From an uncultured Syntrophorhabdus sp. (GTDB taxonomy: Bacteria; Desulfobacterota; BSN033; UBA1163): 40,620 nt of DNA. Below, in pieces: positions 5,575 to 29,160 of the stretch. The first letter of the stretch is position 1; every line of letters begins with the position of its first letter. A model generated the notes under the pieces. That model did no database searches and was not told the origin of the DNA. It was given only the letters and a program-made list of their open reading frames with translations. The stretch lies in the NCBI GenBank assembly GCA_964638215.1, contig CAZXBI010000002.1, forward strand, positions 1 through 40,620, read 5' to 3'. The position numbers and the translations under genes were made by a program.

Positions 5575-5577
5575 GCG

Positions 5578-13369: not shown

Positions 13370-13487
13370 CGAACAAAGATGCTCGAAGAGCCAGCCCGCG
13401 GTCCTTCCGCCTTTAGAGTCGTTCGGTGTCATGGCGAGAAGCCGTTACGAGAACCTTTGATGACTGGAAGAGATACCAATTTTTTTC

Positions 13488-13516
13488 TTGACGGAATAGA
13501 TCATTCGATATATATA
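13488..13516 (+). promoter_or_regulatory. putative promoter of the TetR-headed operon with operator-like dyad
   Basis: TTGACG (13488-13493), 17-nt spacer, TATATA (13511-13516). The spacer holds CGGAATAGATCATTCG (13492-13507). Its reverse complement CGAATGATCTATTCCG resembles CCGAATGATTATTCGG at 1837-1852. Confidence 0.4.
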
Positions 13517-13550
13517 TATCAAATTGCTAACAAGTATTGGGTAATATAAA

Positions 13551-14186
13551 TTGAAAAATCCAGTTCATATCAAGCAATCGGAAATCAAGAACAAGGACCT
13601 GGTAGAGAAACGCCGTTTCCAGATTTGTAAGGCGGCTGAGAAGCTGTTCTCAAAAAAGGGATACCATCGAACATCGGTGAAGGAGATTGCAAAGGCCTCA
13701 GGAATAAGCATTGGCTCCCTCTACGATTACATCAAGAATAAGGAGGATATTTTATACTTTTTCTATGAGCGATATGCTCAAGACCTTGAACGCCGGATAA
13801 AACAATCGACTCAAGGCACTCAGGACCCCATCGAGGAGCTTCGGGCCGCCTTTTTAGCCTTCATGGATACGGTCGATCTATTTCAGGAATATGTCTTATT
13901 TTTTTTCCAAGAATCGAAATATATGAAGAAAAGGGATTTGATCAACATCTTCAAATTGGAACTCTACAGCATGGATTTCTTCATCAATATTGTCAAAAAA
14001 GGGAATAATAAATATTTCTCAGTAAAGGACCCCTTTCTCTTTGGAGTATTCCTCAGTTTACTCACCTGCGGATGGGCTCTTAAAAGGTGGAATTTGAAAA
14101 AATATAAGCTCAAGGATTACAAAGAATTTCTGATCGATTTTTGTTTCAATGGTATCCGGGTTCAAAAAGAAGTGGGCAAAGGATAA
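13551..14186 (+). CDS. TetR/AcrR family transcriptional regulator
   Basis: 211 aa. N-terminal HTH signature AAEKLFSKKGYHRTSVKEIAKASGISIGSLYDYIKNKEDIL. TTG start as given by the ORF track. Confidence 0.85.
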   Translation: MKNPVHIKQSEIKNKDLVEKRRFQICKAAEKLFSKKGYHRTSVKEIAKASGISIGSLYDYIKNKEDILYFFYERYAQDLERRIKQSTQGTQDPIEELRAAFLAFMDTVDLFQEYVLFFFQESKYMKKRDLINIFKLELYSMDFFINIVKKGNNKYFSVKDPFLFGVFLSLLTCGWALKRWNLKKYKLKDYKEFLIDFCFNGIRVQKEVGKG

Positions 14187-14256
14187 AAATAGAAATTATT
14201 TTTTTAATTTATTTACAAACGAACGCTCACTAAATATTTTCAAAAAGGAAAATCAT

Positions 14257-15300
14257 TTGGTCGAAAAAAAGGAAAAAAGAAAAAATATTGAAGATCTCAT
14301 TGACCGGCTTCTGACTGGGGAACATGCAGCAGCGGCCAGAATCATCACCTTACTGGAGAATGAGAGAGGAACCCAAGAGACCATCGAACTAATGGAACGC
14401 ATCTTTCCACATACTGGCAAAGCATGGTTAATTGGCATCACGGGTGCTCCAGGAGTAGGCAAGAGTACATTGGTGGATCGCCTCATCGGCCTCATCCGGG
14501 AGGAGGGGTTGTCGGTGGGCGTGATCGGGGTGGACGCGTCGAGCCCCTTCAGTGGAGGCGCCCTGCTGGGCGACCGGATTCGGATGACCTCATGCCAAGG
14601 GGATAATGGGGTGTTCATTCGGAGTATGGCCACCAGGGGGCATCTGGGAGGATTGGCGCTTGCCACACAGGGTGCTATCCGTGTTCTCGATGCGATGGGA
14701 ATGAACGTGGTCCTCGTTGAGACGGTCGGGGTTGGACAGATTGAGTTGGATATCATGCAGACCGTCGATTCTGTCGTCCTGGTCCTAGTTCCTCGAGCTG
14801 GGGATAGGATTCAGGCAATGAAGGCAGGAATCATGGAGATCGCTGATATCTTTGTTGTGAACAAAAGTGACACCGAAGGTGCTGATGCGATGGTGCAGGA
14901 TATCAGGACGGTCCAGGAGATGAGCAAAGTTGGAGGGATGGGTGAACAGGAAGCTTGGATTCCCCCGATCTTGAAGACCGTCGCCACCGCAATCAATACT
15001 CGCGATCTTAACCCACTCTGGGAGGCCATTCGATCCCACCGGCAATTTCTGGTCAGCCATGAAAAACTGCAGGAAAAGAGGGAGAATCAGGATTATCACG
15101 AAATTGTACGGATATTAACCGAGGAGGTGGAAGGGGGGTGTTGGAAGTTACTTCGGGGTAACAGGGAGCTTCAACCGCTTCTGGAAAAGATGTCGAAGAG
15201 AGAGATGGGTCCTTTCCAGGTATCCAGCTTCATTCTATCCAATTTCTACATACCCAAATGGGGTGTCATCGCCATGAAAGGAAAAGGGAGAAAGACATGA
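14257..15300 (+). CDS. meaB: MeaB/ArgK-type G-protein chaperone for B12 mutases
   Basis: P-loop GAPGVGKST, VDASSPFSGGALLGDRIRM, ETVGVGQ and NKSD motifs. The ORF is open from 14149 but that overlaps the TetR gene. The in-frame TTG at 14257 follows AAAGGAA (14244-14250). Confidence 0.85.
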   Translation: MVEKKEKRKNIEDLIDRLLTGEHAAAARIITLLENERGTQETIELMERIFPHTGKAWLIGITGAPGVGKSTLVDRLIGLIREEGLSVGVIGVDASSPFSGGALLGDRIRMTSCQGDNGVFIRSMATRGHLGGLALATQGAIRVLDAMGMNVVLVETVGVGQIELDIMQTVDSVVLVLVPRAGDRIQAMKAGIMEIADIFVVNKSDTEGADAMVQDIRTVQEMSKVGGMGEQEAWIPPILKTVATAINTRDLNPLWEAIRSHRQFLVSHEKLQEKRENQDYHEIVRILTEEVEGGCWKLLRGNRELQPLLEKMSKREMGPFQVSSFILSNFYIPKWGVIAMKGKGRKT

Positions 15301-16085
15301 ACTATGAGACAGTCCTATTAAACAAAGCAGGCTCCATCCTTCATATCAAGTTAAACCGTCCCGAATCTTTAAATTCGATTAGCCTCAAAATGGCCGAAGA
15401 ATTAAACCAAATCGTCGAAGAGGTAAATCGGGATGAAGAAGTGAAGGCCGTTGTCCTTTCTGGTGAGGGAAGAGCTTTCTGCTCAGGGGGAGATATATCC
15501 TTTCTTCAAGTCATTTCTAAAATGACTGCCTCAGAAGTGAGAAGTTTTGTCTACGATGTGCAGAGAAAGCTCGGAAGTATTGCTTACATCGAAAAACCTG
15601 TCATCGCATCTATTCATGGGTTTGCCCTTGGAGCCGGGCTCAGCTTGGCTCTCCTTTGCGATATCCGTATTGCAACAGAAAATACCCTTTTGGGCATGGA
15701 GTTTATCAAGATCGGAATCATTCCTGAACTGGGGGCAAAGCATTTTCTTCCACATCTTGTAGGGGTAGGGAAAGGGTTGGAATTGGCAATGACAGGAGAC
15801 CGAATCAATGGAAAAGAGGCAGAGAGGATCGGGCTGATCAATCGGGCTGTCCCTGAAGATCAACTGGGACCTGTTACTTTAGAGCTGGCAAAGAAGATCT
15901 CAAACTTAGCGCCCATTGCTGTTCAATTGGTAAAGAGATCCTTCAAGGGAGATTTTCTACGGGACCTTGATGCCGCTTTCGAATATGAGGCAGATTTGAA
16001 CTCCATCTGTTATCTCACTGAGGATTTTCGAGAAGCGGCTCAGGCCTTTATGGAAAAGAGGAAACCAGTATTTAAGGGAAGATAG
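15297..16085 (+). CDS. crotonase-fold protein (enoyl-CoA hydratase/isomerase superfamily), copy 1
   Basis: The ATG overlaps the meaB stop (ATGA, 15297-15300). Motifs AFCSGGD and IHGFALGAGLSLALLCD. At the position of the first catalytic Glu of hydratases the sequence reads S. Confidence 0.85.
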   Translation: MNYETVLLNKAGSILHIKLNRPESLNSISLKMAEELNQIVEEVNRDEEVKAVVLSGEGRAFCSGGDISFLQVISKMTASEVRSFVYDVQRKLGSIAYIEKPVIASIHGFALGAGLSLALLCDIRIATENTLLGMEFIKIGIIPELGAKHFLPHLVGVGKGLELAMTGDRINGKEAERIGLINRAVPEDQLGPVTLELAKKISNLAPIAVQLVKRSFKGDFLRDLDAAFEYEADLNSICYLTEDFREAAQAFMEKRKPVFKGR

Positions 16086-16105
16086 AGAATAAAAGGAGGT
16101 GGATT

Positions 16106-16504
16106 ATGGACAAACTATCTGTTGAAGCCATGAACCTTTTCAACAGTGCCGGAGCGTCTAAGGTCGTGGCGACGATCGACTCTTTGGGGTCGCTCAATGT
16201 CGTTCCCAAGGGCTCATTGAGTGCAATTGATGAGAAGACACTGATCTATGCTGAGATTTCAGGGGGAAAGACCGAGACCAACTTGAAGCCAGGGAATCGG
16301 GTGGCTGCTCTGGCATTTACAGCCTCTCCTCTTAACGGGTATCAGGCTAAGGGAAGATTCGAGGGATTTCAAACTAATGGTCCCCTCTTCGAAAAAGTGG
16401 GCAAAAAGGTGAAGGAGATGATCCATGTGGATATCCGAAGTGTGGGGGTGATCAAGATAGAAGAGATCTATTCAGTATCCCCAAACTTCCTCCCGAAGAG
16501 ATGA
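16106..16504 (+). CDS. PNPOx-like / FMN-binding split-barrel protein (tentative)
   Basis: 132 aa. AAGGAGG Shine-Dalgarno at 16093-16099. The pattern ...VVATIDSLGSLNVVPKGSLSAIDEKTLIYAEISGGKT.NL..N.RVA resembles pyridoxamine-5-phosphate-oxidase-related small proteins. No cofactor motif verifiable by eye. Confidence 0.45.
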   Translation: MDKLSVEAMNLFNSAGASKVVATIDSLGSLNVVPKGSLSAIDEKTLIYAEISGGKTETNLKPGNRVAALAFTASPLNGYQAKGRFEGFQTNGPLFEKVGKKVKEMIHVDIRSVGVIKIEEIYSVSPNFLPKR

Positions 16505-16577
16505 AATACTGGCACAATCGAAGGCCTTACAGCATGTTTACCTTACAAAAACGGGCAAAGCAAGGAGGAGGATAAAG

Positions 16578-18281
16578 ATGTTTGACAAAAAAACGTTAGA
16601 AGAAGCAAAAAAGCTTTCGCAGGAATGGCAGGGTATATGTGAAAAACGCTATCCTGGTAAGGATTTTAGCTCGACCACCAATTCAGGGATACCCATCAAA
16701 CCCGTCTATACTCCAGTAGATGTGGAGCATATTGATTATGGAAAAGACATTGGATTGCCGGGCATTTATCCTTACATGAGAGATAACTATGCCATTCATT
16801 ATCAATTCCAGCCCTGGATCAACCAACAGACCCATGGATATGGGTTACCAGAACACACCAGGGAGAGAATGGATTTACTCGCCAAAGCAGGAATGAAGGG
16901 GTATTTTGGCGGCCGGGCATACAATCTGGTATGGGATTTGCCCTCTTATTCGGGTATCGATCCAGATGAGCCCGAAGCGATAGGCTATATTGGCAAAGAT
17001 GGGGTGAGTTGTGTGACCGATGAGGATTTTGACCGGATGCTCCATGACTTAGACTTAACCAAAACAAATGTAGTGATGATTAATTCGGATACCCTTCCTA
17101 TTTTTGCCCATTTCATTGCTTATGCAGACCAAAAAGGAGTTCCCAGAAATAAGCTACGCGGCAACACGATGAACTGGCAGTTTACGGCCTGGTGGCTTCC
17201 AAGCATGTTATGGGAGCCTGAGGGTGGACTGAAACTGGCTACAGACCTAATTCATTTTTGCTGTCGAGAAATGCCCGATTGGAATCACACCAATTTCGAG
17301 TGCCATGCTATTTCAGAAATGGGTGCCAATGCGGTGCAACAGATGGCTTTTGGCATTGCGACCGCCATAGCTGTTGCCGATTCGTGTGTCAAGGCCGGAA
17401 TCGATCCAGATGCATTCATGCCAGGAATGGGATTCCAAATTGCAAATTGTAACGACTTTTTTGAATATGTCTGTATGTTTCGGGCTTGGAGAAGATTATG
17501 GGCGAGAATCGCTCATGAAAGATATGGGTGCAAAAAACCTTCCTCCATGCATCTCAGGGTTCATACCCATACTTCCTGTTATGAGCTAACGAAGCAACAA
17601 CCTCTGGTGAATCTCATTCGGACAACACTTCATGCCTTAGGGGCAGTCTTCTCTGGAACGACCGCCATGGAATTGCCGGGATATGATGAACCGATTGGTA
17701 TCCCCACTGAGAAAGCCGCGATTCTTTCGCTGAGAATTCAGCAGGTCATTTTGGAAGAAACAGGTATTACCAAAGTAACCGATCCACTATCTGGCTCTTA
17801 CTACATAGAATCGCTTACCAATAAGATTGAAGAAGAAGGTAAAAAGATCCTCAAACAGATTGAAGATATAGGTGGCTTCATGAAGGCCCTGAAGGGTGGA
17901 TGGCTTATTTCCCAGTGTCGTGAGAATGCGGTTAGATGGCGTCGCCAGGTGGATAGTGGAGAAAGAGTGGTGATCGGCTGGAACAAGTTTGCTGTGGAGG
18001 AAGAAGAGGAAGTCAAACCGTTTCGTGTCGATCCAGAGGTAGCGCGAGTTGCCATCGAACGAATCAAGAAATATAAAGCGAACCGTGATCAGGCGAAAAC
18101 AGAAAAGGCTTTGAGCAATCTGGTTTCTGCGGCAGAGAGGTTAGACAAAGGAGAATACGGGGTGGTCATGCCGGCAGCGATCGAAGCAGCTAAAGCCAGG
18201 GCGACTTGCGGAGAAATTTCAAAAGCGCTGGGAAAAGTCTTTAAATGGGGACCGAATTTTAGTCCGCTCATGTCATACTAA
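16578..18281 (+). CDS. methylmalonyl-CoA-mutase-family large (substrate-binding TIM barrel) subunit, divergent (mutase 1)
   Basis: 567 aa, colinear with MCM alpha chains: ...GIPIKPVYTP...GLPGIYPYMR..., FRAWRRLWARI, VHTHTSCYELT, LIRTTLHALGAVFSGT, DPLSGSYYIESLT. AAGGAGGAGG Shine-Dalgarno. Confidence 0.85.
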   Translation: MFDKKTLEEAKKLSQEWQGICEKRYPGKDFSSTTNSGIPIKPVYTPVDVEHIDYGKDIGLPGIYPYMRDNYAIHYQFQPWINQQTHGYGLPEHTRERMDLLAKAGMKGYFGGRAYNLVWDLPSYSGIDPDEPEAIGYIGKDGVSCVTDEDFDRMLHDLDLTKTNVVMINSDTLPIFAHFIAYADQKGVPRNKLRGNTMNWQFTAWWLPSMLWEPEGGLKLATDLIHFCCREMPDWNHTNFECHAISEMGANAVQQMAFGIATAIAVADSCVKAGIDPDAFMPGMGFQIANCNDFFEYVCMFRAWRRLWARIAHERYGCKKPSSMHLRVHTHTSCYELTKQQPLVNLIRTTLHALGAVFSGTTAMELPGYDEPIGIPTEKAAILSLRIQQVILEETGITKVTDPLSGSYYIESLTNKIEEEGKKILKQIEDIGGFMKALKGGWLISQCRENAVRWRRQVDSGERVVIGWNKFAVEEEEEVKPFRVDPEVARVAIERIKKYKANRDQAKTEKALSNLVSAAERLDKGEYGVVMPAAIEAAKARATCGEISKALGKVFKWGPNFSPLMSY

Positions 18282-18298
18282 AAAGGAAATAGGGGGTA

Positions 18299-18709
18299 AT
18301 GACTATGGCATCCAATAAAAAGGCAAGGGTATTAGTGGCAAAGCATATTCTAGAAGGTCATGATCGAGGAGGAAAAACGGTTATTAGGATGTTGAGGGAT
18401 GCAGGGGTTGAGGTCATCTATATCATTTATCGGATTCCAGAAGATGTCGTCATGGCAGCGAAGCAAGAAGATGTTGATGTCATCGGTTTAAGCTTTTTCA
18501 GTGGAGGATATCTTGAAAATGTCCCGAGGTTAATGAAATTAATGGAAGAAAATAGGATGAAAGATGTCCTCGTCATCCTCGGAGGGTTAATCCCAGATGT
18601 GGATAAACCAGAGTTAGTCAAAATGGGTGTCAAAGGAGTATTCGGACCTGGGGACGATCTGACAGGATTTATCAACATGGTTAAAAGCCATGCCGAAGCA
18701 AGGGTCTAG
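18299..18709 (+). CDS. B12-binding small subunit of mutase 1
   Basis: 136 aa. RVLVAKHILEGHDRGGK is the B12 His-loop but reads ExHxxG. Also VDVIGLSFFSGGY and ILGGLIP motifs. Starts 18 nt after the large subunit. Confidence 0.85.
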   Translation: MTMASNKKARVLVAKHILEGHDRGGKTVIRMLRDAGVEVIYIIYRIPEDVVMAAKQEDVDVIGLSFFSGGYLENVPRLMKLMEENRMKDVLVILGGLIPDVDKPELVKMGVKGVFGPGDDLTGFINMVKSHAEARV

Positions 18710-18923
18710 ATTCTTTTTCCGACTCGAATATGGAGGAGGTAGAAAAGAGCATCCATCTGGCTGAAGTAAAACTTATTTCTAAGTTCCCGCTCTCGAAAAG
18801 AGATAGAGACGATATTTTCAACCCACAATTGGTGTTAGTCAATCTCATCCATCTCCTGAGTGCTTTCAAAGGCGAACCTTGTAAATGAGAGAATGTTCAT
18901 CCCTAAAGATAGGGGGCTGATCA

Positions 18924-19718: not shown

Positions 19719-19731
19719 TGAAAGGAGATAG

Positions 19732-22180: not shown

Positions 22181-22182
22181 TC

Positions 22183-22707: not shown

Positions 22708-22846
22708 TTCCAAAAGTTCGGGGTAGGAGATCCGAACGTATTCTATGGAAGGGAAATGCGCTTTTTCTCAATTGGGCTGCCGTCCAAAGTGCAACGGAGT
22801 GGGGAGAGGAGAACGCAAAGCCCAAGGGATAGGAGAGATAGTTCAC

Positions 22847-23620
22847 ATGATCACTGTAGGGATCGATATTGGGGCTTTAACGGCAAAGGCCGTTGTGACG
22901 AAGGATGGAACGATCCTCTCTTGGGCAATCCTGACGACAGGAGAAGAAGGGGCTGTGGCCGCTCAGAAGGTCTTGCAAGAAGCCCTTGAAAAGGCGCAGC
23001 TTTCAATCAAAGAGATTCATCGGATTGCCTCGACAGGCTATGGAAAAGAAACGGTCCACTTTTCCAAACAGCAGGTTCCAGATATGATCTGTCAGGCTAA
23101 AGGGAGTCGATGGTTCTTACCAACAGGAAAGACCTTTATCGACATTGGCGCTGAGACAAGTCGGGCCATCCGATTGGATGGACGGGGAAAGGTGGTTGAC
23201 TTTGCGGTCAATGATAAATGTGCATCAGGAACAGGGATCTTCTTAGAGACTATGGCAAAGGTCTTGGAGGTTCCTCTGGCTGATATGGGGAAATTGGCAT
23301 CCCTATCGAAAGAGCCGGTGGCCATCAGCAGTATGTGTGCGGTTTTCGCCGAATCAGAGATCGTTTCTCATATTCACCAGAAAGTTCCAAAATCTGACAT
23401 TGCCGCGGGAATCCATCAATCTGTGGCTCAGAGGATTATGGGACTTTTAGATAAGATTGGAGTTGAAGTGGATGTGGGGTTGACAGGAGGAGTCGCCAAA
23501 AACTCAGGTGTGGTAAAGGCCCTTGAAGAGCGAATCGGGCTTTCTATTTTTCTCCCGGAGGAACCTCAGATCATAGGGGCTGTCGGTTGTGCTCTGGTGG
23601 CGGCAGGAGTGAATAGATGA
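22847..23620 (+). CDS. activase-type ATPase 1 (BcrAD_BadFG / HgdC family)
   Basis: ITVGIDIGALTAKAVV phosphate-1 motif. The two cluster-ligand Cys sit in NDKCASGTG and SSMCAVFAESE. Also TGGVAKN. The ORF is open from 22745, but AGGAGAG (22831-22837) precedes ATG 22847. Confidence 0.85.
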   Translation: MITVGIDIGALTAKAVVTKDGTILSWAILTTGEEGAVAAQKVLQEALEKAQLSIKEIHRIASTGYGKETVHFSKQQVPDMICQAKGSRWFLPTGKTFIDIGAETSRAIRLDGRGKVVDFAVNDKCASGTGIFLETMAKVLEVPLADMGKLASLSKEPVAISSMCAVFAESEIVSHIHQKVPKSDIAAGIHQSVAQRIMGLLDKIGVEVDVGLTGGVAKNSGVVKALEERIGLSIFLPEEPQIIGAVGCALVAAGVNR

Positions 23621-24819
23621 ACTTCCAAACATCAAAAAAGACGGTCAACCTTTCGAAAGAGATCTGGCCGATGGTGAAACAGTACTATGCCTGGTGCAAG
23701 GAAGCAAAACAGGCTGGTAAGAAAGTGGTCTGGACTGTCGGTCTTGGACCGAATGAACTTCTCCACGCCTTCGGTCTTGCCCCAATTTTTTTGGAACAGT
23801 ACTCCATCGTCATGGCAGGGAGACATCAGGTGACGAGGTACCTGGAAATGGCGGAGAATCTGGGTTTTTCAAGAGACAGTTGCTCTTATCATCGGGCCTT
23901 GATCGGTTACGGTTTGGAACCCGATGGTTTGATGATTCCGAAGCCAGACCTGGTCTTAGCCACGGCGACCCCATGCGACAGTTCAAGTAAGAGTTTCATC
24001 GCCTTGGTGAATCGTCTCGGTATCCCTTACTACTATCTGGATATCCCATTCAACTGCACGGAGGGCGCTGGAGAGGCCCATCAGTTCGACTATGTCGAGG
24101 AGCAGTTAAAAGAACTTGTCTCCTTTTTGGAGAAGGAGACTGGAGTATCACTAACCAGTGAGAGGCTTGGAAAAGTGGTGGGATTGGCCAATCGGGCTAA
24201 TGATCTTTGGGCCAAGATCAATGATTTGCGGAAGGCCGTTCCCTGCCCCATGACTGTGGCAGATGAGATGGGCCTCGCCTATCCACTCTTTCAGTTGCCT
24301 GGGACCGAACAGACGGTGCAATTTTACGAGAAGGTGCTTGCTGAGGTGGGAGAGCGAGTTCGGAAAGAGGAAGGAGCCATCCCAAATGAGCGATATCGAA
24401 TTCTATGGCTCGGACCTGCAGCATGGTATCACTTACGGCTTCTCAATTATGTTGAGGATTACGGCGGGGTTCTCGTGAAATCTGACTTTGACTACCTGAC
24501 CCATGGATGGATTGATCCTGGGAATCCCTTGAGAGGAATAGGAGAGAAGATGATCTCCGGATTCCTCAATGGTGTTGTGGAGAACCGCATCCAGCTGGCA
24601 CGACGATTCGTCCAAGACTACCGGATCAATGGCGTCATCGCCTTTTCTCACTTTGGATGTCGCCAATATGGAGGCGGGCAGAGAGCGGTCAAGGATGCCC
24701 TTTTTGAGGAGTTCGGAATTCCGACCCTTATCCTTGAGGGGGATAACATCGATGAGAGAAACTATGCCGATGACCAAGTGAGGAGTCGGATTGAGGACTT
24801 TATTTCTTTAATGATGTAG
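23617..24819 (+). CDS. HgdA/HadB/BcrB-like subunit of 2-hydroxyacyl-CoA dehydratase / benzoyl-CoA reductase family
   Basis: 400 aa. ATGA overlap with the upstream ATPase gene. Motifs KKVVWTVGLGPNELLHAFGL.P, ATPCDSSSK, INGVIAFSHFGCRQYGG. Confidence 0.8.
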   Translation: MNFQTSKKTVNLSKEIWPMVKQYYAWCKEAKQAGKKVVWTVGLGPNELLHAFGLAPIFLEQYSIVMAGRHQVTRYLEMAENLGFSRDSCSYHRALIGYGLEPDGLMIPKPDLVLATATPCDSSSKSFIALVNRLGIPYYYLDIPFNCTEGAGEAHQFDYVEEQLKELVSFLEKETGVSLTSERLGKVVGLANRANDLWAKINDLRKAVPCPMTVADEMGLAYPLFQLPGTEQTVQFYEKVLAEVGERVRKEEGAIPNERYRILWLGPAAWYHLRLLNYVEDYGGVLVKSDFDYLTHGWIDPGNPLRGIGEKMISGFLNGVVENRIQLARRFVQDYRINGVIAFSHFGCRQYGGGQRAVKDALFEEFGIPTLILEGDNIDERNYADDQVRSRIEDFISLMM

Positions 24820-24831
24820 GAGGGGAGAGAG

Positions 24832-25632
24832 ATGTTTTTTGCTGGGGTAGATGTTGGTTCCTTGAGTGCTGACACAGTGATCATGGACGATGGAAAGGTA
24901 GTTGCTTATAGCGTTCTTCCCACTGGAGGGGATAGTACGAACGCAGCTTATAAAGCCATGGAGGTTGCACTGAATCAAGGGGCTCTTAAACTCGGGGACA
25001 TGGCCTACACGGTTGCAACGGGCTATGGCAGAGTGAATGTTCCCTTTGCCAGAGAAAACGTCACAGAGATCTCGTGCCATGCACGAGGTGCTCATTGGCT
25101 CTTTCCTTCAACGAGGACCATCCTGGATATGGGAGGCCAGGACTGCAAGGCCATTCGATGTGATGAACAAGGAAATGTCGTAGACTTCGCCATGAATGAG
25201 AAGTGTGCTGCCGGAACAGGAAGGTATCTGGAGATCATTGCTGAAGTCTTGGAGATGAGACTCGAAGAGATTGGGCCGAGATCTTTGGAGGCAAAGCAGG
25301 AAGTAGGGATCAGCTCAGCATGTGCTGTTTTTGCTCGCTCAGAGGTGCTCTCATTGGTTCGGAAGGGAGTTCCTAAAAATGATGTCCTTGGAGGGATCCA
25401 CGAGGCCATTGTTTGTCGAGTCCTAGCCCTGATCATGCGAGTGGGAATTGAAAAGGATTTTATCATCACCGGAGGGATTGCTAAGAATATTGGGGTGGTG
25501 CGCCGATTGGAAAAAAGGATGGAATTGGACGCTAAGATACCAACAGAGCCCCAAATTGTGGGGGCCCTCGGAGCAGCCCTCTTCGCAGAGGAGAGGTTTC
25601 GTTCTGGATTTCAAAAAACGGGAGGTGTGTGA
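24832..25632 (+). CDS. activase-type ATPase 2 (BcrAD_BadFG / HgdC family)
   Basis: 266 aa. FAGVDVGSLSADTVI, NEKCAAGTG, SSACAVFARSE, TGGIAKN. A clearly different paralogue of ATPase 1. GGAGGGGAGAG Shine-Dalgarno. Confidence 0.85.
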   Translation: MFFAGVDVGSLSADTVIMDDGKVVAYSVLPTGGDSTNAAYKAMEVALNQGALKLGDMAYTVATGYGRVNVPFARENVTEISCHARGAHWLFPSTRTILDMGGQDCKAIRCDEQGNVVDFAMNEKCAAGTGRYLEIIAEVLEMRLEEIGPRSLEAKQEVGISSACAVFARSEVLSLVRKGVPKNDVLGGIHEAIVCRVLALIMRVGIEKDFIITGGIAKNIGVVRRLEKRMELDAKIPTEPQIVGALGAALFAEERFRSGFQKTGGV

Positions 25633-26786
25633 TGGATTTTGAGCTTTCGGAGGAACAGAAGGGAATCAAGCGGGCAGCTTTCGAGTTTGCAAAAGGGGAG
25701 TTCGACAAGGATCTCGCTATGGAGTTGACAAAGAATCATGCCTTTCCTGCGGAGATTCATAAGAAGACCTGTAAACTTGGATTTATCGGGATGCATTATC
25801 CGGAGGCCTATGGTGGGCAGGGTTATGGAATCCTTGAGAATGGTTTGGTCATGGAGGAATTCTGTCGTCAAGACTCCAGTATCGGGATTGCTCTCAGCGT
25901 TTGCAATTTTTCTTCGGAGATCATCTTGCGTTTCGGCAATGAAGAACAGAAAAAGAAATATTTGATTCCTTTAACCAAGGGTGAAATGATCTCCTCGGGT
26001 GCTTTTACAGAGCCAGATCACGGGAGCGATATTACCCAGATGTTCACCACTGCCATGTTGGAGGATGGAGGGTTCGTCGTTAATGGCACAAAGACGTTCA
26101 TCACCAATGGGACGATTGCAAAATTCGCCATCGTCCTTTGTCAAACCGATTCTAATGCCAAGCCCACTTATCGAGGACAATCCACCATCCTCGTAGAGAC
26201 AGGTCGAGAGGGATTTGAGATTTCAGATGTGGGTGAAAAGATGGGAATCAAGATGAGCCCCACGACGGAGATGTCATTCAACAATGTAAGGGTCCCCAAA
26301 GAAAATCTCATAGGAGAGCTCAATAAAGGGTTTTACAATGTTCTCGGGTTCTTTGATGAAAGCCGTGTTTTGGTAGGGTCCCAAGGTCTTGGGATCGCTC
26401 AGGGGGCCTTTGATCGGGCCTTGGATTATACCAAAAAGAGGACTCAGTTTGGGCAAAAATTGGTGGATTTTCAGGTGACCCAACATAAACTGGCAGATAT
26501 GGCGACAAAGATAGAGGTTGCCCGATTGCTGGTTTACAAGGCCGGATGGAACTTCGACCAGGGGAGGATTGATCCCAAACTCACATCGATGGCCAAGATG
26601 TTTGCAGCTCGGGTGGCGGTGGAGGTTGCAGACGAAGCGATTCAAATGTTAGGAGGATATGGTTATATTACGGAATATGAGGTGGAGCGGTTCTACCGAG
26701 ATGCAAAAATCACTGAGATTTATGAAGGGACGCGGGAGATCCAGAAGAATACGATTGCGAGTTACCTGATTGGCAAGAACAAATGA
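25632..26786 (+). CDS. acyl-CoA dehydrogenase (butyryl/medium-chain type)
   Basis: About 384 aa. The ATG overlaps the stop of the ATPase 2 gene (TGATG 25630-25634). Motifs AFTEPDHGSD, GTKTFITNG, and catalytic-base context IYEGTREIQ. Confidence 0.9.
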   Translation: MDFELSEEQKGIKRAAFEFAKGEFDKDLAMELTKNHAFPAEIHKKTCKLGFIGMHYPEAYGGQGYGILENGLVMEEFCRQDSSIGIALSVCNFSSEIILRFGNEEQKKKYLIPLTKGEMISSGAFTEPDHGSDITQMFTTAMLEDGGFVVNGTKTFITNGTIAKFAIVLCQTDSNAKPTYRGQSTILVETGREGFEISDVGEKMGIKMSPTTEMSFNNVRVPKENLIGELNKGFYNVLGFFDESRVLVGSQGLGIAQGAFDRALDYTKKRTQFGQKLVDFQVTQHKLADMATKIEVARLLVYKAGWNFDQGRIDPKLTSMAKMFAARVAVEVADEAIQMLGGYGYITEYEVERFYRDAKITEIYEGTREIQKNTIASYLIGKNK

Positions 26787-26975
26787 ACTCAACAATAATA
26801 AGGGGGATTTAAGATGCGGAAGGTTGCGCTGTTTCTGGATGATTCCAAAGAATGATCATTGTCCTCCCTGTCATTGGGTTCTTTAGTTTCTCTACAGCCC
26901 CCTTAGGGAATGATAGACTAAAAAATGTATAAAATATCAGTCGCTAAATAGAACGGATTTGAAGAGGGAAACAGG

Positions 26976-28658
26976 ATGTTTAAAGAAGAAGAAATTAAAA
27001 GAATTGAAAAAGAAAGAATGGAGTGGACGGAGAAGACAAAGGATTTCATGGAACAGAAGAAGGAATTTGTAACCCCTTCGGGGATAAAGATTAAGAACAT
27101 TTATACTCCTGAAGACATTAAAGGTTTAGATTATGTGAAAGATATTGGTTTTCCGGGTGTCTATCCTAATGTCAGGGGTGTCTACCCCACGATGTACAGG
27201 GGGCAACCCTGGACCATCCGAATGTTTTCAGGTTTTGGGACCCCTGAAGAAACCAATAAAAGGTGGAGGTTACTTTATGAAGAAGGGGAAACCGGTTTTT
27301 CAGCGGCCTGTGACGTCCTTACCTTTAATGGGATTGATCCTGATGACCCTGAGGTTGATGCCCAGGGAGAAGTGGGGACTTCAGGGACTCCCCTTTATTC
27401 TATTAAGGCTGTCGAGGAAATGATTAAAGACTTACCCATTGATAAAGTCACAGTAGCTCTGGTGGTAGAGTGTATGACCGCCACAAGCCTCACGTCCATG
27501 TACTTCAATGCTGCTAAAAAAAGAGGGTATTCTCTGAACCAGATAGGGGGGACCACTCAAAATGATATTGGCACGATGTTGATTGGTTATATTACGCGCA
27601 ATTCCTTAAAACCCGATGTACTTTTAAAACTAGCATGCGATTTAATAGAATATTGCATTCCGATGAAGAATGCCCCGCGCTGGAATCCGATTAATTTTAC
27701 GACCTATAATTATCGCGAAGGCGGGATCGATGCAGTTCAAGAGATCGCCTTTGGCTTTACCAACGCCATAGACCATATTGATGAGTTGTTAAGACGAGGC
27801 TGGGAGATCGACGAATTTGCCCACAGGCTGGCATTCCATCTTTCTGCAGACCGCCATTTCTTTGAAGAGATTGCCAAATACCGTGCTGCTCGGAGAATCT
27901 GGGCCAAATTGATGACCGAAAGATATGGCGCCAAGAACCCCCAATCGATTGCTATGAAATATCATGTTCAAACGGCCGGGAGTTCCCTGGCCAATAAACA
28001 ACCAATGGTGAATATTATCAGGACTACTATTCAGGGTTTGGAAGCTGTTCTGGGGGGAACACAATCCATGCATACTAACTCCTGGGATGAGGCCATCTGT
28101 CTTCCTTCGGATGAGGCAGTAAAATTAGCCGTAAAAACCCAACAGGTCATCCGGGAGGAGACAGGGGTTACGGATACCATTGATCCCTTGGCCGGTTCCT
28201 ATTATGTAGAATGGCTTACCAATGAAATGGAGAAGCGTATCTTGAGTTACATGGGAGAGATTGAAGCACAAGGAGGTTTTGTCAAAGCCCTTGAAAATGG
28301 TTGGATTTTTAACGAAATGACCAAGGCTTTTCATAAGCGACAAAGAGCCATTGCCAGTGGAGAGGAAAAATTTCTTGGAATAAACTGTTTTACCAGTCAG
28401 GAGGAATCCACCATCATTCCTTTCCGGACTAATCCTAAAGCGGCAGAGATTGAAATCGAAAGGCTAAAGAAACTGAGAAAAGAACGTAATAACAACCGTG
28501 TTACTGCCTTGCTGGACGAATTACGCCGTGTTTGTGAAAGGAAAGAAAATGTCATGCCTAAAGTAATGGAACTCACCGCGGAAGGGGCTACCTTGGGTGA
28601 AATCACTAAAGTTTATCGCCAAATTTTTGGAGTTTGGGAATTGCCCATTGCTGTTTAG
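26976..28658 (+). CDS. methylmalonyl-CoA-mutase-family large subunit (mutase 2)
   Basis: 560 aa. Motifs GFPGVYPNVRGVYPTMYRGQPWTIRMFSGFGTPEETN, GGTTQNDI, KYRAARRIWAKL, HVQTAGSSL, DPLAGSYYVEWLT. Confidence 0.9.
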   Translation: MFKEEEIKRIEKERMEWTEKTKDFMEQKKEFVTPSGIKIKNIYTPEDIKGLDYVKDIGFPGVYPNVRGVYPTMYRGQPWTIRMFSGFGTPEETNKRWRLLYEEGETGFSAACDVLTFNGIDPDDPEVDAQGEVGTSGTPLYSIKAVEEMIKDLPIDKVTVALVVECMTATSLTSMYFNAAKKRGYSLNQIGGTTQNDIGTMLIGYITRNSLKPDVLLKLACDLIEYCIPMKNAPRWNPINFTTYNYREGGIDAVQEIAFGFTNAIDHIDELLRRGWEIDEFAHRLAFHLSADRHFFEEIAKYRAARRIWAKLMTERYGAKNPQSIAMKYHVQTAGSSLANKQPMVNIIRTTIQGLEAVLGGTQSMHTNSWDEAICLPSDEAVKLAVKTQQVIREETGVTDTIDPLAGSYYVEWLTNEMEKRILSYMGEIEAQGGFVKALENGWIFNEMTKAFHKRQRAIASGEEKFLGINCFTSQEESTIIPFRTNPKAAEIEIERLKKLRKERNNNRVTALLDELRRVCERKENVMPKVMELTAEGATLGEITKVYRQIFGVWELPIAV

Positions 28659-28737
28659 TTGAAAAGAAAATCCTTCTAAGGATTTATCTCTCATTGCAAA
28701 CGACATTTTCCATTTCAAGGATGGAGGGAGTTAAGGA

Positions 28738-29160
28738 ATGGGCACTGGTAAAAAGATCAGGGTCTTAATGGTAAAAGTAGGGTTTGATGGCCACTGGCGA
28801 GGAGCCGTCAGCGTTTCTTCATTATTAAAAGATGCTGGCATGGAGGTCATTTTTGGAGGCTTCCAGGAAATTGACACGATTATTAATACGGCAATTCAGG
28901 AAGATGTGGATGTTATTGGTCTGAGTATTCATTCCGGTGCCCATATCTACTGGACAAGAAAAATAGTTGAACGGCTTGCAGAAAGAAGTCTGGCCAATGA
29001 ATTCATTTTAATGGTCGGAGGTGCTATTCCCGAATATGACTTTGAGGAGCTGCGAAATTTAGGTGTTTATGGGATATTTTCACCAGGCACTCTTCCAGAG
29101 AGGATCGTCAGCGAGTTCAGGGAAAGTGTATCGGGAAAAAAGATGGCCCGTTTACATTAG
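28738..29160 (+). CDS. B12-binding small subunit of mutase 2
   Basis: 140 aa. Canonical DxHxxG (FDGHWRG), VDVIGLSIHSGAH, VGGAIP. Confidence 0.85.
   Translation: MGTGKKIRVLMVKVGFDGHWRGAVSVSSLLKDAGMEVIFGGFQEIDTIINTAIQEDVDVIGLSIHSGAHIYWTRKIVERLAERSLANEFILMVGGAIPEYDFEELRNLGVYGIFSPGTLPERIVSEFRESVSGKKMARLH

What the first reader, a model, noticed from the sequence alone, without database searches (positions are those of the whole stretch)
13478..29160. TetR-headed cluster uniting two B12 acyl-CoA mutases with an ATP-driven HgdAB/BCR-type Fe-S radical enzyme
Sixteen co-directional genes (13551-29160) have small gaps or overlapping stop/start codons (ATGA at 15297-15300 and 23617-23620, TGATG at 25630-25634). 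In order they encode TetR, MeaB, crotonase, PNPOx-like, mutase-1 large+small, crotonase, thiolase, HgdB/HadC/BcrC-like, CobO-type adenosyltransferase, activase ATPase, HgdA/HadB/BcrB-like, a second activase ATPase, acyl-CoA dehydrogenase, and mutase-2 large+small. Every catalytic gene acts on CoA thioesters. The upstream array (1938-13369) supplies uptake plus three acid-CoA ligases. Partial analogues I know are: hadIBC-acdB and fldIBC-acdA (dehydratase next to acyl-CoA dehydrogenase); E. coli sbm-ygfD-ygfG (mutase, MeaB-type G protein, crotonase-fold decarboxylase); hcm clusters (2-hydroxyisobutyryl-CoA mutase with a ligase); and the mutase steps proposed for alkylsuccinate and indoleacetate degradation. 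To my knowledge none of these joins ketyl-radical Fe-S chemistry and two AdoCbl carbon-skeleton mutases in one regulon. Working hypothesis: anaerobic catabolism of a branched or aryl-substituted (possibly 2-hydroxy) carboxylic acid, where skeleton rearrangement makes the chain beta-oxidisable. No EtfAB or ferredoxin partner is present in the window.
Basis: partly seen in the sequence, partly recalled or inferred. Interest (0 to 1): 0.85.

Follow-up and report, generated by a model that had tools for sequence, protein, structure and literature searches.

The report
B12 mutases beside ATP-driven Fe-S reductase
An uncultured anaerobe (probably a spore-forming sulfate-reducer relative) carries a real, conserved gene cluster that joins two uncharacterised vitamin-B12 carbon-skeleton mutases to an ATP-driven iron-sulfur enzyme, but a similar unexplained pairing is already published for acetone-degrading sulfate reducers, so this is a new variant and not a new kind.

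Summary
Sixteen co-directional genes (13551-29160) carry the stated domains and overlapping junctions. The order recurs in independent assemblies: 100% identical in L179, 93.5% in L099, about 85% in L001 and L010.

- The Fe-S enzyme is benzoyl-CoA-reductase-type in build. It has two HGD-D subunits and two different ATPases. All six double-cubane cysteines of BzdN are kept. The catalytic subunit lacks BzdO His131 and Trp46, so it is neither a true benzoyl-CoA reductase nor a classical dehydratase.
- Both mutases belong to orphan clades with rewritten active sites.
- The mutase-1 module (MeaB, mutase, crotonase-like, thiolase, Hbd-like dehydrogenase, ligases, ABC importer) is widespread, including in aerobes. 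It has the gene set of 2-hydroxyisobutyrate-type pathways.
- Mutase-2 is a swappable accessory: absent in L099 and free-standing in Peptococcaceae.
- The claim of no precedent fails. Acetone-induced clusters of Desulfotomaculum arcticum and D. geothermicum already combine a B12 mutase with BCR/HGD subunits of unknown role.

Most likely this is a catabolic island for a small branched or 2-hydroxy carboxylic acid. The substrate is unproven. Verdict: new variant of a known kind, interest 0.6.

The parts
1938..8830 (+). Liv-type ABC importer: ATPases 1938-2717 and 7991-8830, permeases 4705-5574 and 5578-6648, binding protein 6722-7960. A 633-aa FadD-like acyl-CoA ligase (2773-4674) is embedded in it.
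   Evidence: Pfam and NCBIfam. The ABC ATPases are about 56% identical and the ligase about 36% identical to genes flanking mutase-1 homologues in Burkholderiales, Roseiarcus and Nocardioides.
9524..10489 (+). 3-hydroxyacyl-CoA dehydrogenase of the Hbd family (3HCDH_N plus 3HCDH).
   Evidence: Pfam. It is 50-64% identical to the dehydrogenase next to mutase-1 homologues in aerobes.
10622..11917 (+). PaaK-like acyl-CoA ligase 1.
   Evidence: Pfam and NCBIfam, below all cut-offs. It is 32-34% identical to a ligase in the Burkholderiales clusters.
11942..13369 (+). PaaK/HCL-like acyl-CoA ligase 2.
   Evidence: The best solved-structure match is 2-hydroxyisobutyryl-CoA synthetase 6HDW (163 bits), against 140 bits for PaaK. 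It is only 24% identical to the ligase of the ELW1 2-HIBA cluster.
13489..13524 (+). Candidate promoter (TTGACG followed by a TATATA-rich stretch) with an AT-rich palindrome at 13503-13524. This may be the TetR operator.
   Evidence: Sequence read and inverted repeat of 11 nt, 91% complementary. Its function was not tested.
13551..14186 (+). TetR-family regulator.
   Evidence: Pfam TetR_N, 54.7 bits. It holds the same position in L001, L010 and L179.
14257..15300 (+). MeaB G-protein chaperone. The ORF opens at 14149; the likely start is 14257.
   Evidence: TIGR00750, 322 bits, above its cut-off. Start choice. Homologues are 347-349 aa.
15297..16085 (+). Crotonase-fold protein ECH1. It is non-canonical: Ser replaces the first catalytic Glu and the second Glu is displaced.
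   Evidence: Pfam and alignment with a canonical ECH from L101.
16106..16504 (+). Small PNPOx-like (split-barrel flavin-binding) protein.
   Evidence: Pfam 26 bits, below the cut-off. No NCBIfam match. It is conserved between ECH1 and mutase-1 in L001, L004, L010, L011, L099 and L179.
16578..18709 (+). Mutase-1: large subunit 16578-18281, B12-binding subunit 18299-18709. An orphan acyl-CoA mutase clade.
   Evidence: Pfam 477 bits. Active-site positions are Y89 to Thr, Q197 to Met, R207 lost, Y243-H244 to His-Ala, and Val at the HcmA Asp117 position. Family distribution.
18924..19718 (+). Crotonase-fold protein ECH2. It is non-canonical: Val replaces the first catalytic Glu.
   Evidence: Pfam and alignment.
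19732..20937 (+). Thiolase, acetoacetyl-CoA/BktB-like.
   Evidence: Pfam. TIGR01930, 453 bits, above its cut-off.
21053..22180 (+). BzdN/BcrC-like subunit (HGD1) with all six [8Fe-9S] double-cubane cysteines: C35, C73, C100, C261, C291, C324.
   Evidence: The best PDB match is BzdN 8S02_B, 220 bits, with the alignment. Ligand list from PMC11971306. The best NCBIfam match is 'double_cubane', 266 bits against a cut-off of 350.
22183..22707 (+). CobA/CobO-type ATP:cob(I)alamin adenosyltransferase, embedded among the reductase genes.
   Evidence: TIGR00708, 180 bits, above its cut-off. It holds the same position in L099, L100, L101 and L179.
22847..23620 (+). ASKHA ATPase 1 (BcrAD_BadFG). The ORF opens at 22745.
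   Evidence: Pfam. The best equivalog is BzdQ at 172 bits, below its cut-off. Both cluster cysteine motifs are present.
23617..24819 (+). BzdO/HadB-like catalytic subunit (HGD2). It has C89, C120, C348 and Glu60, but Ser at the BzdO His131 position and Gly at the Trp46 position.
   Evidence: PDB alignments with 8S02_A and 3O3M_A. Residue roles from PMC11971306.
24832..25632 (+). ASKHA ATPase 2 (BcrAD_BadFG).
   Evidence: Pfam. BzdQ at 265 bits, below its cut-off of 380.
25632..26786 (+). Acyl-CoA dehydrogenase of the Bcd/AcrC type, with the canonical YEG motif.
   Evidence: NCBIfam: AcrC at 384 bits is the best match, below its cut-off. Sequence. Relatives at 70-74% identity sit in thiolase-ECH-ACAD-mutase-MeaB clusters.
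26976..29160 (+). Mutase-2: large subunit 26976-28658, B12-binding subunit 28738-29160. A second orphan clade and a variable accessory of the cluster.
   Evidence: The best PDB match is HcmA, 451 bits. The active-site signature is F/A/Q/R/Y/N. Context varies between relatives.

Best explanation
This is a modular catabolic island, fronted by a TetR regulator, in an uncultured Firmicute of the Desulfotomaculum/Desulfovirgula type. Its likely substrate is a small branched carboxylic acid, most likely a tertiary 2-hydroxy acid or an alpha-methyl-branched acid of the 2-hydroxyisobutyrate kind.

Inferred steps:
1. The acid enters through the Liv-type ABC importer.
2. One of three ligases thioesterifies it. 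One of these ligases is closest to 2-hydroxyisobutyrate-CoA ligase.
3. Mutase-1 moves the thioester carbon by one position, so the chain can be oxidised. Mutase-1 is an orphan adenosylcobalamin acyl-CoA mutase. MeaB, the CobO adenosyltransferase and perhaps the small flavoprotein service it.
4. The crotonase-like proteins, the Hbd-type dehydrogenase and the thiolase convert the product to acetyl-CoA.

A second branch is formed by a four-subunit ATP-driven enzyme of the benzoyl-CoA-reductase/2-hydroxyacyl-CoA-dehydratase family. It has a BzdN-type double-cubane electron store and a catalytic site unlike that of BCR. The Bcd/AcrC-like acyl-CoA dehydrogenase sits beside it. This branch probably dehydrates or reductively dehydroxylates a 2-hydroxyacyl-CoA, or reduces an unsaturated CoA ester. 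Mutase-2, and in relatives an ICM-type mutase, are exchangeable accessories that linearise other short branched acyl-CoAs.

Shown: the domain identities, cofactor-ligand conservation, synteny and modularity. Inferred: the substrate and every reaction.
For: - The domains and the operon-like packing are confirmed.
- Synteny is conserved across samples.
- The mutase-1 family travels with MeaB, an Hbd-type dehydrogenase, a thiolase, an ECH, ligases and the same ABC system in Burkholderiales, Alphaproteobacteria, Streptomyces and Nocardioides, often without any ACAD. A mutase product that needs no ACAD is expected to be already a 3-hydroxyacyl-CoA.
- The best solved-structure match of ligase 2 is the 2-HIBA-CoA ligase.
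- Mutase-1 has Val at the HcmA Asp117 position. From my own recollection of Weichler et al. 2015, the (R)-specific 2-HIBA-CoA mutase RcmA also has Val there.
- Acetone-degrading Desulfotomaculum species have a B12 2-HIBA-CoA mutase, BCR/HGD subunits, crotonases, thiolases and a dehydrogenase in one induced cluster (PMC8084838).
- The ACAD is closest to AcrC/Bcd. Its 70-74% relatives sit next to short-chain mutase clusters.
- In L100 and L101 a mutase with the ICM signature sits between CobO and ATPase1, inside the reductase gene set.
- In a Chloroflexota genome, mutase-1 lies next to 2-hydroxyacid dehydrogenase, 2-oxoacid:ferredoxin oxidoreductase, ligase and HGD-D genes.
Against: - Neither mutase has the HCM signature (Ile90/Asp117) or the ICM signature.
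- Mutase-1 has also lost Gln197, Arg207, Tyr243 and His244, and has an aromatic-rich stretch (NWQFTAWW). This could instead fit a bulky non-polar substrate.
- Ligase 2 is only 24% identical to a bona fide HCL.
- A six-cysteine double cubane with two distinct ATPases is the build of a stoichiometric two-electron reductase, not of a catalytic dehydratase.
- Old-yellow-enzyme-type reductases (L004, L010) and an SCP-x thiolase with DUF35 (L099, L101) accompany the module in relatives, as in aromatic or alicyclic pathways.
- All Thl/Hbd/Crt/Bcd assignments are below the curated cut-offs.
- No expression or biochemical data exist.
Confidence: 0.4

Rival explanations
1. This is a pathway for an aromatic or alicyclic acid. 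Mutase-1 shifts the thioester on an aryl- or ring-substituted branched chain, for example 2-arylpropionyl-CoA to 3-arylpropionyl-CoA. Beta-oxidation then releases an aroyl- or cyclohexenoyl-CoA, and the BCR-type enzyme reduces that product with ATP.
For: - The enzyme has the BCR-type build: two HGD-D subunits, two different ATPases and all six BzdN double-cubane cysteines. Its best PDB matches are BzdN and BzdO.
- Mutase-1 has lost every polar substrate-binding residue and has an aromatic-rich pocket stretch.
- Two of the ligases are PaaK-like.
- Old-yellow-enzyme-type reductases sit next to the module in L004 and L010, and beside relatives of the Fe-S subunit in L005.
- An SCP-x thiolase with DUF35 occurs in L099 and L101.
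- A different BCR-like four-gene set lies beside the 83%-identical mutase-1 gene in a Desulfovirgula MAG.
Against: - The catalytic subunit lacks BzdO His131 and Trp46.
- All BCR equivalog scores are far below their cut-offs.
- No ring-hydrolase (Oah/BadI-type) match appears among the best crotonase hits.
- The ACAD, thiolase and dehydrogenase are of short-chain types.
- The same mutase family in aerobes has no link to an aromatic pathway.
- DUF35 with a thiolase also occurs in the acetone clusters.
Confidence: 0.25
2. This is a ketone (acetone or butanone) degradation cluster like those of Desulfotomaculum arcticum and D. geothermicum. Mutase-1 or mutase-2 would be the 2-hydroxyisobutyryl-CoA mutase, and the BCR/HGD enzyme would help in ketone activation.
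For: [quoted passage not shown] The host lineage is related.
Against: - The two hallmark genes, the thiamine-diphosphate enzyme and the HMG-CoA-lyase-like protein, are absent from the whole 40.6-kb window and from L099, L101 and L179.
- An ABC importer and three acid-CoA ligases point to a free acid as substrate.
- D. arcticum and D. geothermicum did not appear among the 80 best genome matches to mutase-1. This is weak evidence, because candidates were picked by peptide patterns.
Confidence: 0.1
3. There is no single pathway. The array is a recombination mosaic of independent units that only share a strand: the importer and ligases, the mutase-1 module, the reductase with its ACAD, and mutase-2.
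For: - Gene content is modular across relatives. Mutase-2 is present, absent or elsewhere. CobO and the ICM-type mutase are inserted or missing. An OYE gene replaces other genes in L004 and L010.
- Protein identity to L099 ranges from 83% to 100% gene by gene.
- There are gaps of 109-214 nt, and a promoter-like site lies before mutase-2.
Against: - The mutase-1 family adjoins BCR/HGD-family genes in at least four different arrangements: the window with L099, L001, L012, and L041 with L043.
- B12 service genes and a mutase lie inside the reductase gene set.
- Stop and start codons overlap across functional boundaries.
- The acetone-induced clusters show co-expression of such gene pairs.
Confidence: 0.15

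Closest known systems
Acetone/butanone-induced gene clusters of sulfate reducers (Desulfotomaculum arcticum, D. geothermicum; co-induced proteins in Desulfococcus biacutus and Desulfosarcina cetonica)
   Same: A B12-dependent acyl-CoA mutase (large and small subunits, MeaB in D. cetonica) occurs together with two BCR/HGD-family subunits, crotonases, thiolases, a 3-hydroxyacyl-CoA dehydrogenase and acyl-CoA synthetases. In the Desulfotomaculum species these sit in one induced cluster. The host lineage is related (PMC8084838, PMC7888143).
   Different: The window has no thiamine-diphosphate enzyme and no HMG-CoA-lyase-like gene. It has an ABC importer, a TetR regulator, CobO, two ATPase genes interleaved with the HGD-D genes, and a second mutase.
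2-Hydroxyisobutyrate mutase pathway (hcl-hcmAB/rcmAB-meaH; ibc cluster 2 of Mycolicibacterium sp. ELW1)
   Same: The gene set matches: PaaK-family acid-CoA ligase, mutase large and small subunits, MeaB-type chaperone, CobO-type adenosyltransferase, 3-hydroxybutyryl-CoA dehydrogenase and thiolase. Ligase 2's best structural match is HCL.
   Different: Mutase-1 and mutase-2 lack the HCM Ile90/Asp117 signature, which ELW1 IbcP has. They are only 36-38% identical to IbcP, and the ligases are only 24% identical. The regulator is TetR, not GntR. An Fe-S reductase is present.
Class I benzoyl-CoA reductase of the Bzd type (BzdNOPQ; structure 8S02)
   Same: It has a four-gene build with two HGD-D subunits and two ASKHA ATPases. 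All six [8Fe-9S] cysteines of BzdN, the three [4Fe-4S] cysteines of BzdO and Glu65 are conserved.
   Different: BzdO His131 is Ser and Trp46 is Gly. The scores are 115-265 bits against equivalog cut-offs of 380-454. The gene order is interrupted by CobO.
2-Hydroxyacyl-CoA dehydratases next to an acyl-CoA dehydrogenase (hadIBC-acdB, lcdABC with acrC)
   Same: An HGD-D pair with ASKHA ATPase is followed directly by a Bcd/AcrC-like ACAD. The catalytic subunit has no His at the BzdO-131 position, as in HadB, which has Ala there.
   Different: The beta-like subunit keeps the full double-cubane ligand set, which HadC has lost. There are two different ATPases instead of one homodimeric activator. HadB and HadC score 145 and 218 bits against cut-offs of 750 and 700.
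E. coli sbm-ygfD-ygfG and the indoleacetate (iaa) operon (IaaGH mutase with IaaF dehydrogenase)
   Same: A mutase, a MeaB-type G protein and a crotonase-fold protein lie side by side. As in iaaF-iaaGH, an ACAD is adjacent to a mutase.
   Different: Neither mutase has the methylmalonyl-CoA signature. The ACAD has YEG, not the GGG motif of IaaF. No other iaa gene type is present in the window.

Membership tests
AdoCbl-dependent acyl-CoA mutase superfamily | A large subunit with the MM_CoA_mutase barrel, plus a separate or fused B12-binding domain with the DxHxxG motif. | tested here: met
   Pfam scores are 477 and 556 bits for the large subunits and 76 and 84 bits for the B12 domains. Mutase-2 small subunit has DGHWRG. 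Mutase-1 small subunit has EGHDRG, with Glu in place of Asp.
Methylmalonyl-CoA mutase (MCM) | Carboxylate-binding Tyr89 and Arg207, plus Tyr243-His244 (P. shermanii numbering). | tested here: not met
   Mutase-1 has Thr, none, and His-Ala. Mutase-2 has Phe, Arg, and Tyr-Asn. The NF006944 equivalog scores are 364 and 455 bits against a cut-off of 876.
Isobutyryl-CoA mutase (ICM) | Phe at the Tyr89 position and Gln at the Arg207 position, with His244 kept. | tested here: not met
   Mutase-2 has Phe but Arg at 207 and Asn at 244. Mutase-1 differs throughout. In contrast, the extra mutase in L101 has the full F/Q/Y/H signature.
2-Hydroxyisobutyryl-CoA mutase, HCM type | Ile90 and Asp117 (A. tertiaricarbonis HcmA numbering). 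| tested here: not met
   Mutase-1 has Thr and Val. Mutase-2 has Phe and Ala. The controls HcmA (4R3U) and ELW1 IbcP both have Ile and Asp.
2-Hydroxyisobutyryl-CoA mutase, RCM type (Kyrpidia tusciae RcmAB) | Val in place of HcmA Asp117, and overall orthology to RcmA. | tested here: inconclusive
   Mutase-1 has Val at that position. The RcmA feature rests on my recollection of Weichler et al. 2015. No RcmA sequence or paper was available.
Class I benzoyl-CoA reductase | Two HGD-D subunits plus two distinct ASKHA ATPase subunits. | tested here: met
   Pfam. The two ATPases are separate genes of 257-291 and 266 aa, both with cluster cysteine motifs.
Class I benzoyl-CoA reductase | Six cysteines that ligate the [8Fe-9S] double cubane in the BzdN-type subunit. 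| tested here: met
   C35, C73, C100, C261, C291 and C324 align with BzdN C36, C73, C100, C263, C293 and C327.
Class I benzoyl-CoA reductase | The BzdO active site: Cys95, Cys128 and Cys380, plus Glu65, His131 and Trp46. | tested here: not met
   The three Cys and the Glu are conserved, but His131 is Ser123 and Trp46 is Gly44. All Bcr and Bzd equivalog scores are below their cut-offs.
2-Hydroxyacyl-CoA dehydratase (HAD) | A beta subunit reduced to a [4Fe-5S] site, with the double-cubane ligands lost, and one homodimeric activator ATPase. | tested here: not met
   HGD1 keeps all six cysteines, whereas HadC lacks those aligned with BzdN C36 and C263. There are two different ATPase genes. The description of HAD comes from PMC11971306.
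Acetone-type cluster of sulfate reducers | A thiamine-diphosphate (acetolactate-synthase-like) enzyme and an HMG-CoA-lyase-like protein next to the mutase. | tested here: not met
   No such Pfam domain occurs in any ORF of at least 90 aa in the window or in L099 and L101.
Indoleacetate (iaa) pathway | An IaaF-type decarboxylating ACAD with a GGG motif in place of YEG. | tested here: not met
   The ACAD carries ...ITEIYEGTREIQ.... The motif definition is from PMC8360864.
Canonical enoyl-CoA hydratase (crotonase) | Two catalytic glutamates (GGGxE...PE motif). | tested here: not met
   ECH1 has GAGLS...GMEF. ECH2 has GGGMV...LPEV. The canonical control from L101 has GGGCE...QPEV.

The most novel reading that the evidence does not exclude
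The BCR/HAD-family enzyme is a previously undescribed partner of B12 acyl-CoA mutases. Two forms of this reading are open.
1. It is an ATP-driven reductive dehydroxylase or dehydratase for tertiary 2-hydroxyacyl-CoAs such as 2-hydroxyisobutyryl-CoA. This would open a reductive route to isobutyryl-CoA that the neighbouring mutases then linearise.
2. It is an ATP-driven low-potential electron source that re-reduces cob(II)alamin for the embedded CobO adenosyltransferase. This would make it a mutase repair system.

Either form would also explain the unexplained acetone-induced BCR/HGD proteins of sulfate reducers. It would also mean that mutase-1 and mutase-2 are two new substrate specificities in the acyl-CoA mutase family.
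Probability: 0.15. Interest if true: 0.9.

Novelty: new variant of a known kind. Interest (0 to 1): 0.6.

Why it matters
Four acetone-degrading sulfate reducers induce BCR/HGD-type proteins together with a B12 2-hydroxyisobutyryl-CoA mutase. The authors of that work single out these proteins as being of special interest, and their role is unknown.

This window shows the same partnership in a cluster that has an acid importer and CoA ligases but no ketone-activating genes. That argues the Fe-S enzyme acts on a CoA-ester intermediate and not in ketone activation.

The window also gives a compact and well-conserved gene set for expression. It points to two sizeable uncharacterised clades of acyl-CoA mutases with rewritten active sites:
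- one spans Dehalococcoidia to Burkholderiales and Streptomyces;
- the other spans Asgard archaea, Syntrophoarchaeum and Actinomycetota.

Finally, it contains a BCR/HAD hybrid that combines the BzdN double cubane with a non-BCR catalytic site. This is relevant to how that radical enzyme family diversified.

Tried and rejected
- **Indoleacetate/phenylsuccinyl-CoA pathway.** I considered it because an ACAD lies next to a mutase that keeps Arg207. I rejected it because the ACAD has YEG, not IaaF's GGG, and no other iaa gene types are present.
- **Naphthalene thn-type pathway.** Literature searches found no mutase link.
- **Alkylsuccinate mutase role for mutase-2.** Its closest named relative is from the alkane-degrading Peptococcaceae SCADC. 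There, however, the genes lie among housekeeping genes, and the window has no decarboxylase or CoA-transferase. This stays unresolved and was not adopted.
- **Binding-protein specificity.** The solved-structure search was uninformative.
- **Promoter and terminator scans.** Counts were at chance level.
- **RNA elements.** There is no B12 riboswitch, other Rfam family or tRNA in the window.
- **A reference RcmA or D. arcticum sequence.** I could not obtain one, and no description of the RcmA active site either.
- **L041 as an acetone-type cluster.** The gene upstream of the HMGL-like gene is a sigma-54 regulator, not a thiamine-diphosphate enzyme.
- **Plasmid search with mutase-1.** It gave only hits of 41% identity or less, in unrelated contexts.
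- **Exact look-up of the HGD1 protein.** The look-up with the longest ORF found nothing, because the true start is two codons downstream.

Full report
**1. Observation**

The window carries 16 co-directional ORFs between 13551 and 29160. Pfam assigns them, in order:
- TetR_N
- MeaB
- ECH
- a weak PNPOx-like match (26 bits, below the cut-off)
- MM_CoA_mutase, then B12-binding
- ECH
- thiolase
- HGD-D
- CobA/CobO
- BcrAD_BadFG
- HGD-D
- BcrAD_BadFG
- acyl-CoA dehydrogenase (ACAD)
- MM_CoA_mutase, then B12-binding

Intergenic gaps range from -4 to 214 nt. Ribosome-binding sites and homologue lengths place the true starts of MeaB, ECH1, HGD1, ATPase1 and ACAD at 14257, 15297, 21053, 22847 and 25632.

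Upstream (1938-13369) lie a Liv-type ABC importer with an embedded 633-aa FadD-like ligase, an Hbd-type 3-hydroxyacyl-CoA dehydrogenase and two PaaK-like ligases.

The array recurs in other assemblies:
- L179 is 100% identical over 5297-26085.
- L099 is 93.5% identical.
- L001 and L010 are about 85% identical.
- L101 is 82-94% identical.

**2. Host**

No marker gene is present. Three lines of evidence bear on the host:
- The best genome match to mutase-1 is a Desulfovirgula MAG, at 83%.
- Mutase-2 is 69-87% identical to genes on Peptococcaceae-SCADC-type contigs that also carry SpoIIID and SpoIID.
- GC skew follows the coding strand.

The host is probably a Desulfotomaculum-type Firmicute.

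**3. The Fe-S enzyme**

NCBIfam places all four subunits between benzoyl-CoA reductases and 2-hydroxyacyl-CoA dehydratases, far below every equivalog cut-off. The best solved-structure matches are BzdN (220 bits) and BzdO (105 bits), just ahead of HadC and HadB.

The 2025 BzdNO structure paper lists six cysteines for the [8Fe-9S] double cubane of BzdN. For the water-bearing [4Fe-4S] site of BzdO it lists three cysteines plus Glu65, His131 and Trp46. It also states that dehydratases have lost the double cubane, keeping a [4Fe-5S] remnant, and have Ala at the His131 position (PMC11971306).

In the alignments:
- HGD1 keeps all six cysteines, whereas HadC lacks two of them.
- HGD2 keeps the three cysteines and the Glu, but has Ser for His131 and Gly for Trp46.
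- Both ATPases keep the cluster cysteine motifs.

The enzyme therefore has the build of a stoichiometric ATP-driven two-electron reductase, but its catalytic pocket is not that of a benzoyl-CoA reductase. It cannot be filed as a BCR or as a HAD.

**4. The mutases**

I aligned both large subunits to P. shermanii MCM and to HcmA.

Mutase-1 has:
- Thr for Tyr89
- Met for Gln197
- no counterpart of Arg207
- His-Ala for Tyr243-His244
- Val at the HcmA Asp117 position
- an inserted GYFGGRxYN loop and an aromatic-rich NWQFTAWW stretch

Its family has two branches. One, at 62-93% identity, is found in Firmicutes and many Dehalococcoidia. The other, at 43-51% identity, is found in Burkholderiales, Alphaproteobacteria, Acidimicrobiia, Streptomyces, Nocardioides and Desulfobacterota.

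Mutase-2 is closest to HcmA (451 bits), but its signature is Phe/Ala/Gln/Arg/Tyr/Asn. Across 120 relatives the pattern is F-A-Q-[Y/W/R/F]-Y-N. Arg occurs only in the nine closest relatives. The rest come from Actinomycetota, Syntrophoarchaeum and Asgard archaea.

Neither mutase meets the MCM, ICM or HCM signatures. The controls behave as expected: HcmA and ELW1 IbcP show I/D/Q/Q/Y/H, and the extra mutase in L101 shows the ICM signature F/Q/Y/H.

**5. Modularity**

tblastn synteny with all window proteins gave the following.

(a) In aerobes, mutase-1 homologues sit in a self-contained operon. It holds a TetR regulator, MeaB, an Hbd-type dehydrogenase (50-64% identical to the window's), a thiolase, the mutase large and small subunits, an ECH, a FadD-like ligase, ABC ATPases (56% identical) and a PaaK-like ligase. 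Often there is no ACAD.

(b) In Dehalococcoidia the core is ECH-mutase-ECH. In one genome it lies next to genes for a 2-hydroxyacid dehydrogenase, a 2-oxoacid:ferredoxin oxidoreductase, a ligase and an HGD-D protein.

(c) In the Firmicute clade the module adjoins BCR-like genes in several different arrangements:
- the window, L099 and L179;
- L001, where the allele is 71% identical and CobO is absent;
- L004 and L010, where an old-yellow-enzyme-type reductase is present;
- L012, where a different four-gene BCR-like set and a sigma-54 regulator lie beside an 83%-identical mutase-1 gene.

(d) L100 and L101 carry an ICM-signature mutase between CobO and ATPase1. After the ACAD they carry an SCP-x-type thiolase, DUF35, a canonical ECH and a flavoprotein, and only then mutase-2.

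(e) L099 lacks mutase-2 altogether. In Peptococcaceae SCADC-type contigs mutase-2 stands alone between SIR2 and EcsC/MreB/SpoIIID.

The link between mutase-1 and the Fe-S enzyme is therefore recurrent. Mutase-2 is an exchangeable accessory, and a 189-nt gap with a promoter-like site precedes it.

**6. Other enzymes**

- The ACAD has the ordinary YEG motif. It is closest to AcrC and Bcd types. Its 70-74% relatives sit in thiolase-ECH-ACAD-mutase-MeaB clusters.
- The thiolase is BktB/acetoacetyl-CoA-like.
- Both crotonase-fold proteins that flank mutase-1 lack the first catalytic glutamate, unlike the canonical ECH of L101. They may be isomerases, or they may act on unusual substrates.

**7. Comparison with what is known**

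The literature searches found no paper that describes this cluster. They did find a precedent.

In Desulfotomaculum arcticum and D. geothermicum, one acetone-, butanone- and isopropanol-induced cluster holds:
- a B12 mutase (large and small subunits)
- two BCR/HGD subunits
- crotonases
- thiolases
- DUF35
- a 3-hydroxyacyl-CoA dehydrogenase
- an HMG-CoA-lyase-like protein
- a thiamine-diphosphate enzyme

This is reported in PMC8084838. The BCR/HGD subunits are also acetone-induced in D. biacutus and D. cetonica (PMC7888143). Their role is unknown, and the authors suspect a part in acetone activation. The D. biacutus mutase is described as RcmAB-like (PMC7176365).

The window lacks the two ketone-specific genes and has an importer and ligases instead.

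The experimentally supported 2-hydroxyisobutyrate cluster of Mycolicibacterium ELW1 has the same functional set as the mutase-1 module, including a CobO-type adenosyltransferase. Ligase 2's best structural match is the 2-HIBA-CoA ligase, at 163 bits against 140 for PaaK. It is nevertheless only 24% identical to the ELW1 ligase.

**8. Best explanation and rivals**

I favour a catabolic island for a small branched acid or 2-hydroxy acid (confidence 0.4). Mutase-1 makes the skeleton oxidisable, and Thl/Hbd/Crt-like enzymes finish the job. The Fe-S enzyme and the ACAD form a dehydrating or reducing branch on a 2-hydroxy or unsaturated CoA ester.

The rivals are:
- An aromatic or alicyclic reading (0.25). 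It rests on the BCR-type build, the apolar mutase-1 pocket, and the OYE and DUF35 neighbours.
- A ketone cluster (0.1). The missing hallmark genes disfavour it.
- A functionless mosaic (0.15). The repeated and varied adjacency disfavours it, as do the B12 genes inside the reductase set.

No reaction has been shown.

**9. Verdict**

Its novelty was overstated.
- The pairing of a B12 acyl-CoA mutase with a BCR/HGD enzyme is already published, though unexplained.
- One of the two mutases is not a stable member of the cluster.

What remains of interest:
- two orphan mutase clades;
- a hybrid Fe-S enzyme that combines a BzdN-type double cubane with a non-BCR active site;
- a cluster variant suggesting that the Fe-S enzyme works on CoA esters downstream of activation.

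I rate it a new variant of a known kind, with interest 0.6.

Noticed in passing
L101 1672-3861 and the same position in L100: In close relatives, a third mutase pair with the full isobutyryl-CoA-mutase signature (Phe/Gln/Tyr-His) is inserted between CobO and ATPase1, inside the reductase gene set. L101 therefore carries at least two mutase systems within 15 kb.
   Followed up: partly
window 15633-26824 compared with L099: Identity to the close relative L099 is mosaic, gene by gene. ECH1 and HGD2 are 100% identical, ATPases 98%, Mut1L 93%, Mut1S 85% and CobO 83%. This suggests recombination between strains within the cluster.
   Followed up: partly
L092/L093, L052, L065, L073, L075, L078, L082: A self-contained operon is widespread in Burkholderiales, Roseiarcus, Streptomyces colonosanans and Nocardioides sp. 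Root140. It holds TetR, MeaB, an Hbd-type dehydrogenase, a thiolase, a mutase-1-like large and small subunit, an ECH, a FadD-like ligase, ABC ATPases and a PaaK-like ligase. Its substrate is unknown.
   Followed up: partly
Proteins P0268-P0386 (relatives of window 26976-28658): The mutase-2 family has a conserved active-site pattern, F-A-Q-[Y/W/R/F]-Y-N, with His244 always replaced by Asn. It occurs in Asgard archaea, Syntrophoarchaeum, Actinomycetota and Peptococcaceae. In L182 it sits in an SDR-thiolase-ACAD-mutase-acetyl-CoA-synthetase context.
   Followed up: partly
window 33266-35303: A small island with defence or toxin-antitoxin features: a BrnT-like toxin (33266-33544) overlapping a 92-aa partner ORF, a REase-ARP/PD-(D/E)XK nuclease (33960-34826) and a PIN-domain protein (34914-35303).
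   Followed up: no
window 29511-29570: A 17-nt inverted repeat, 94% complementary with a 26-nt spacer, lies at the end of the convergent ADP-forming acyl-CoA synthetase gene (29556-31637, minus strand). It may be a terminator between the convergent units.
   Followed up: no
window 29556-32892 (minus strand): An ADP-forming acyl-CoA synthetase (693 aa) and a CrtC-like double-lipocalin protein (382 aa) converge on the cluster. The synthetase could recover ATP from a CoA-ester end product.
   Followed up: no
window 36765-40530 (minus strand): A 364-aa protein with a C-terminal 2x[4Fe-4S] ferredoxin-type domain lies next to an 852-aa MacB/FtsX-type permease. This is the only ferredoxin-like gene in the window, and it is not adjacent to the cluster.
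   Followed up: no
L041 and L043 (Desulfobacterota MAGs, one from a tar biofilm): A mutase-1-like gene (49% identical) is flanked on both sides by HGD-D gene pairs without nearby ATPases. The surrounding genes include an HMG-CoA-lyase-like gene, two ACADs, MaoC-type hydratases, SDRs and a glyoxalase-fold (epimerase-like) gene.
   Followed up: partly
window 18299-18709: The B12-binding subunit of mutase-1 reads EGHDRG where the canonical motif is DxHxxG, so Glu replaces Asp.
   Followed up: no
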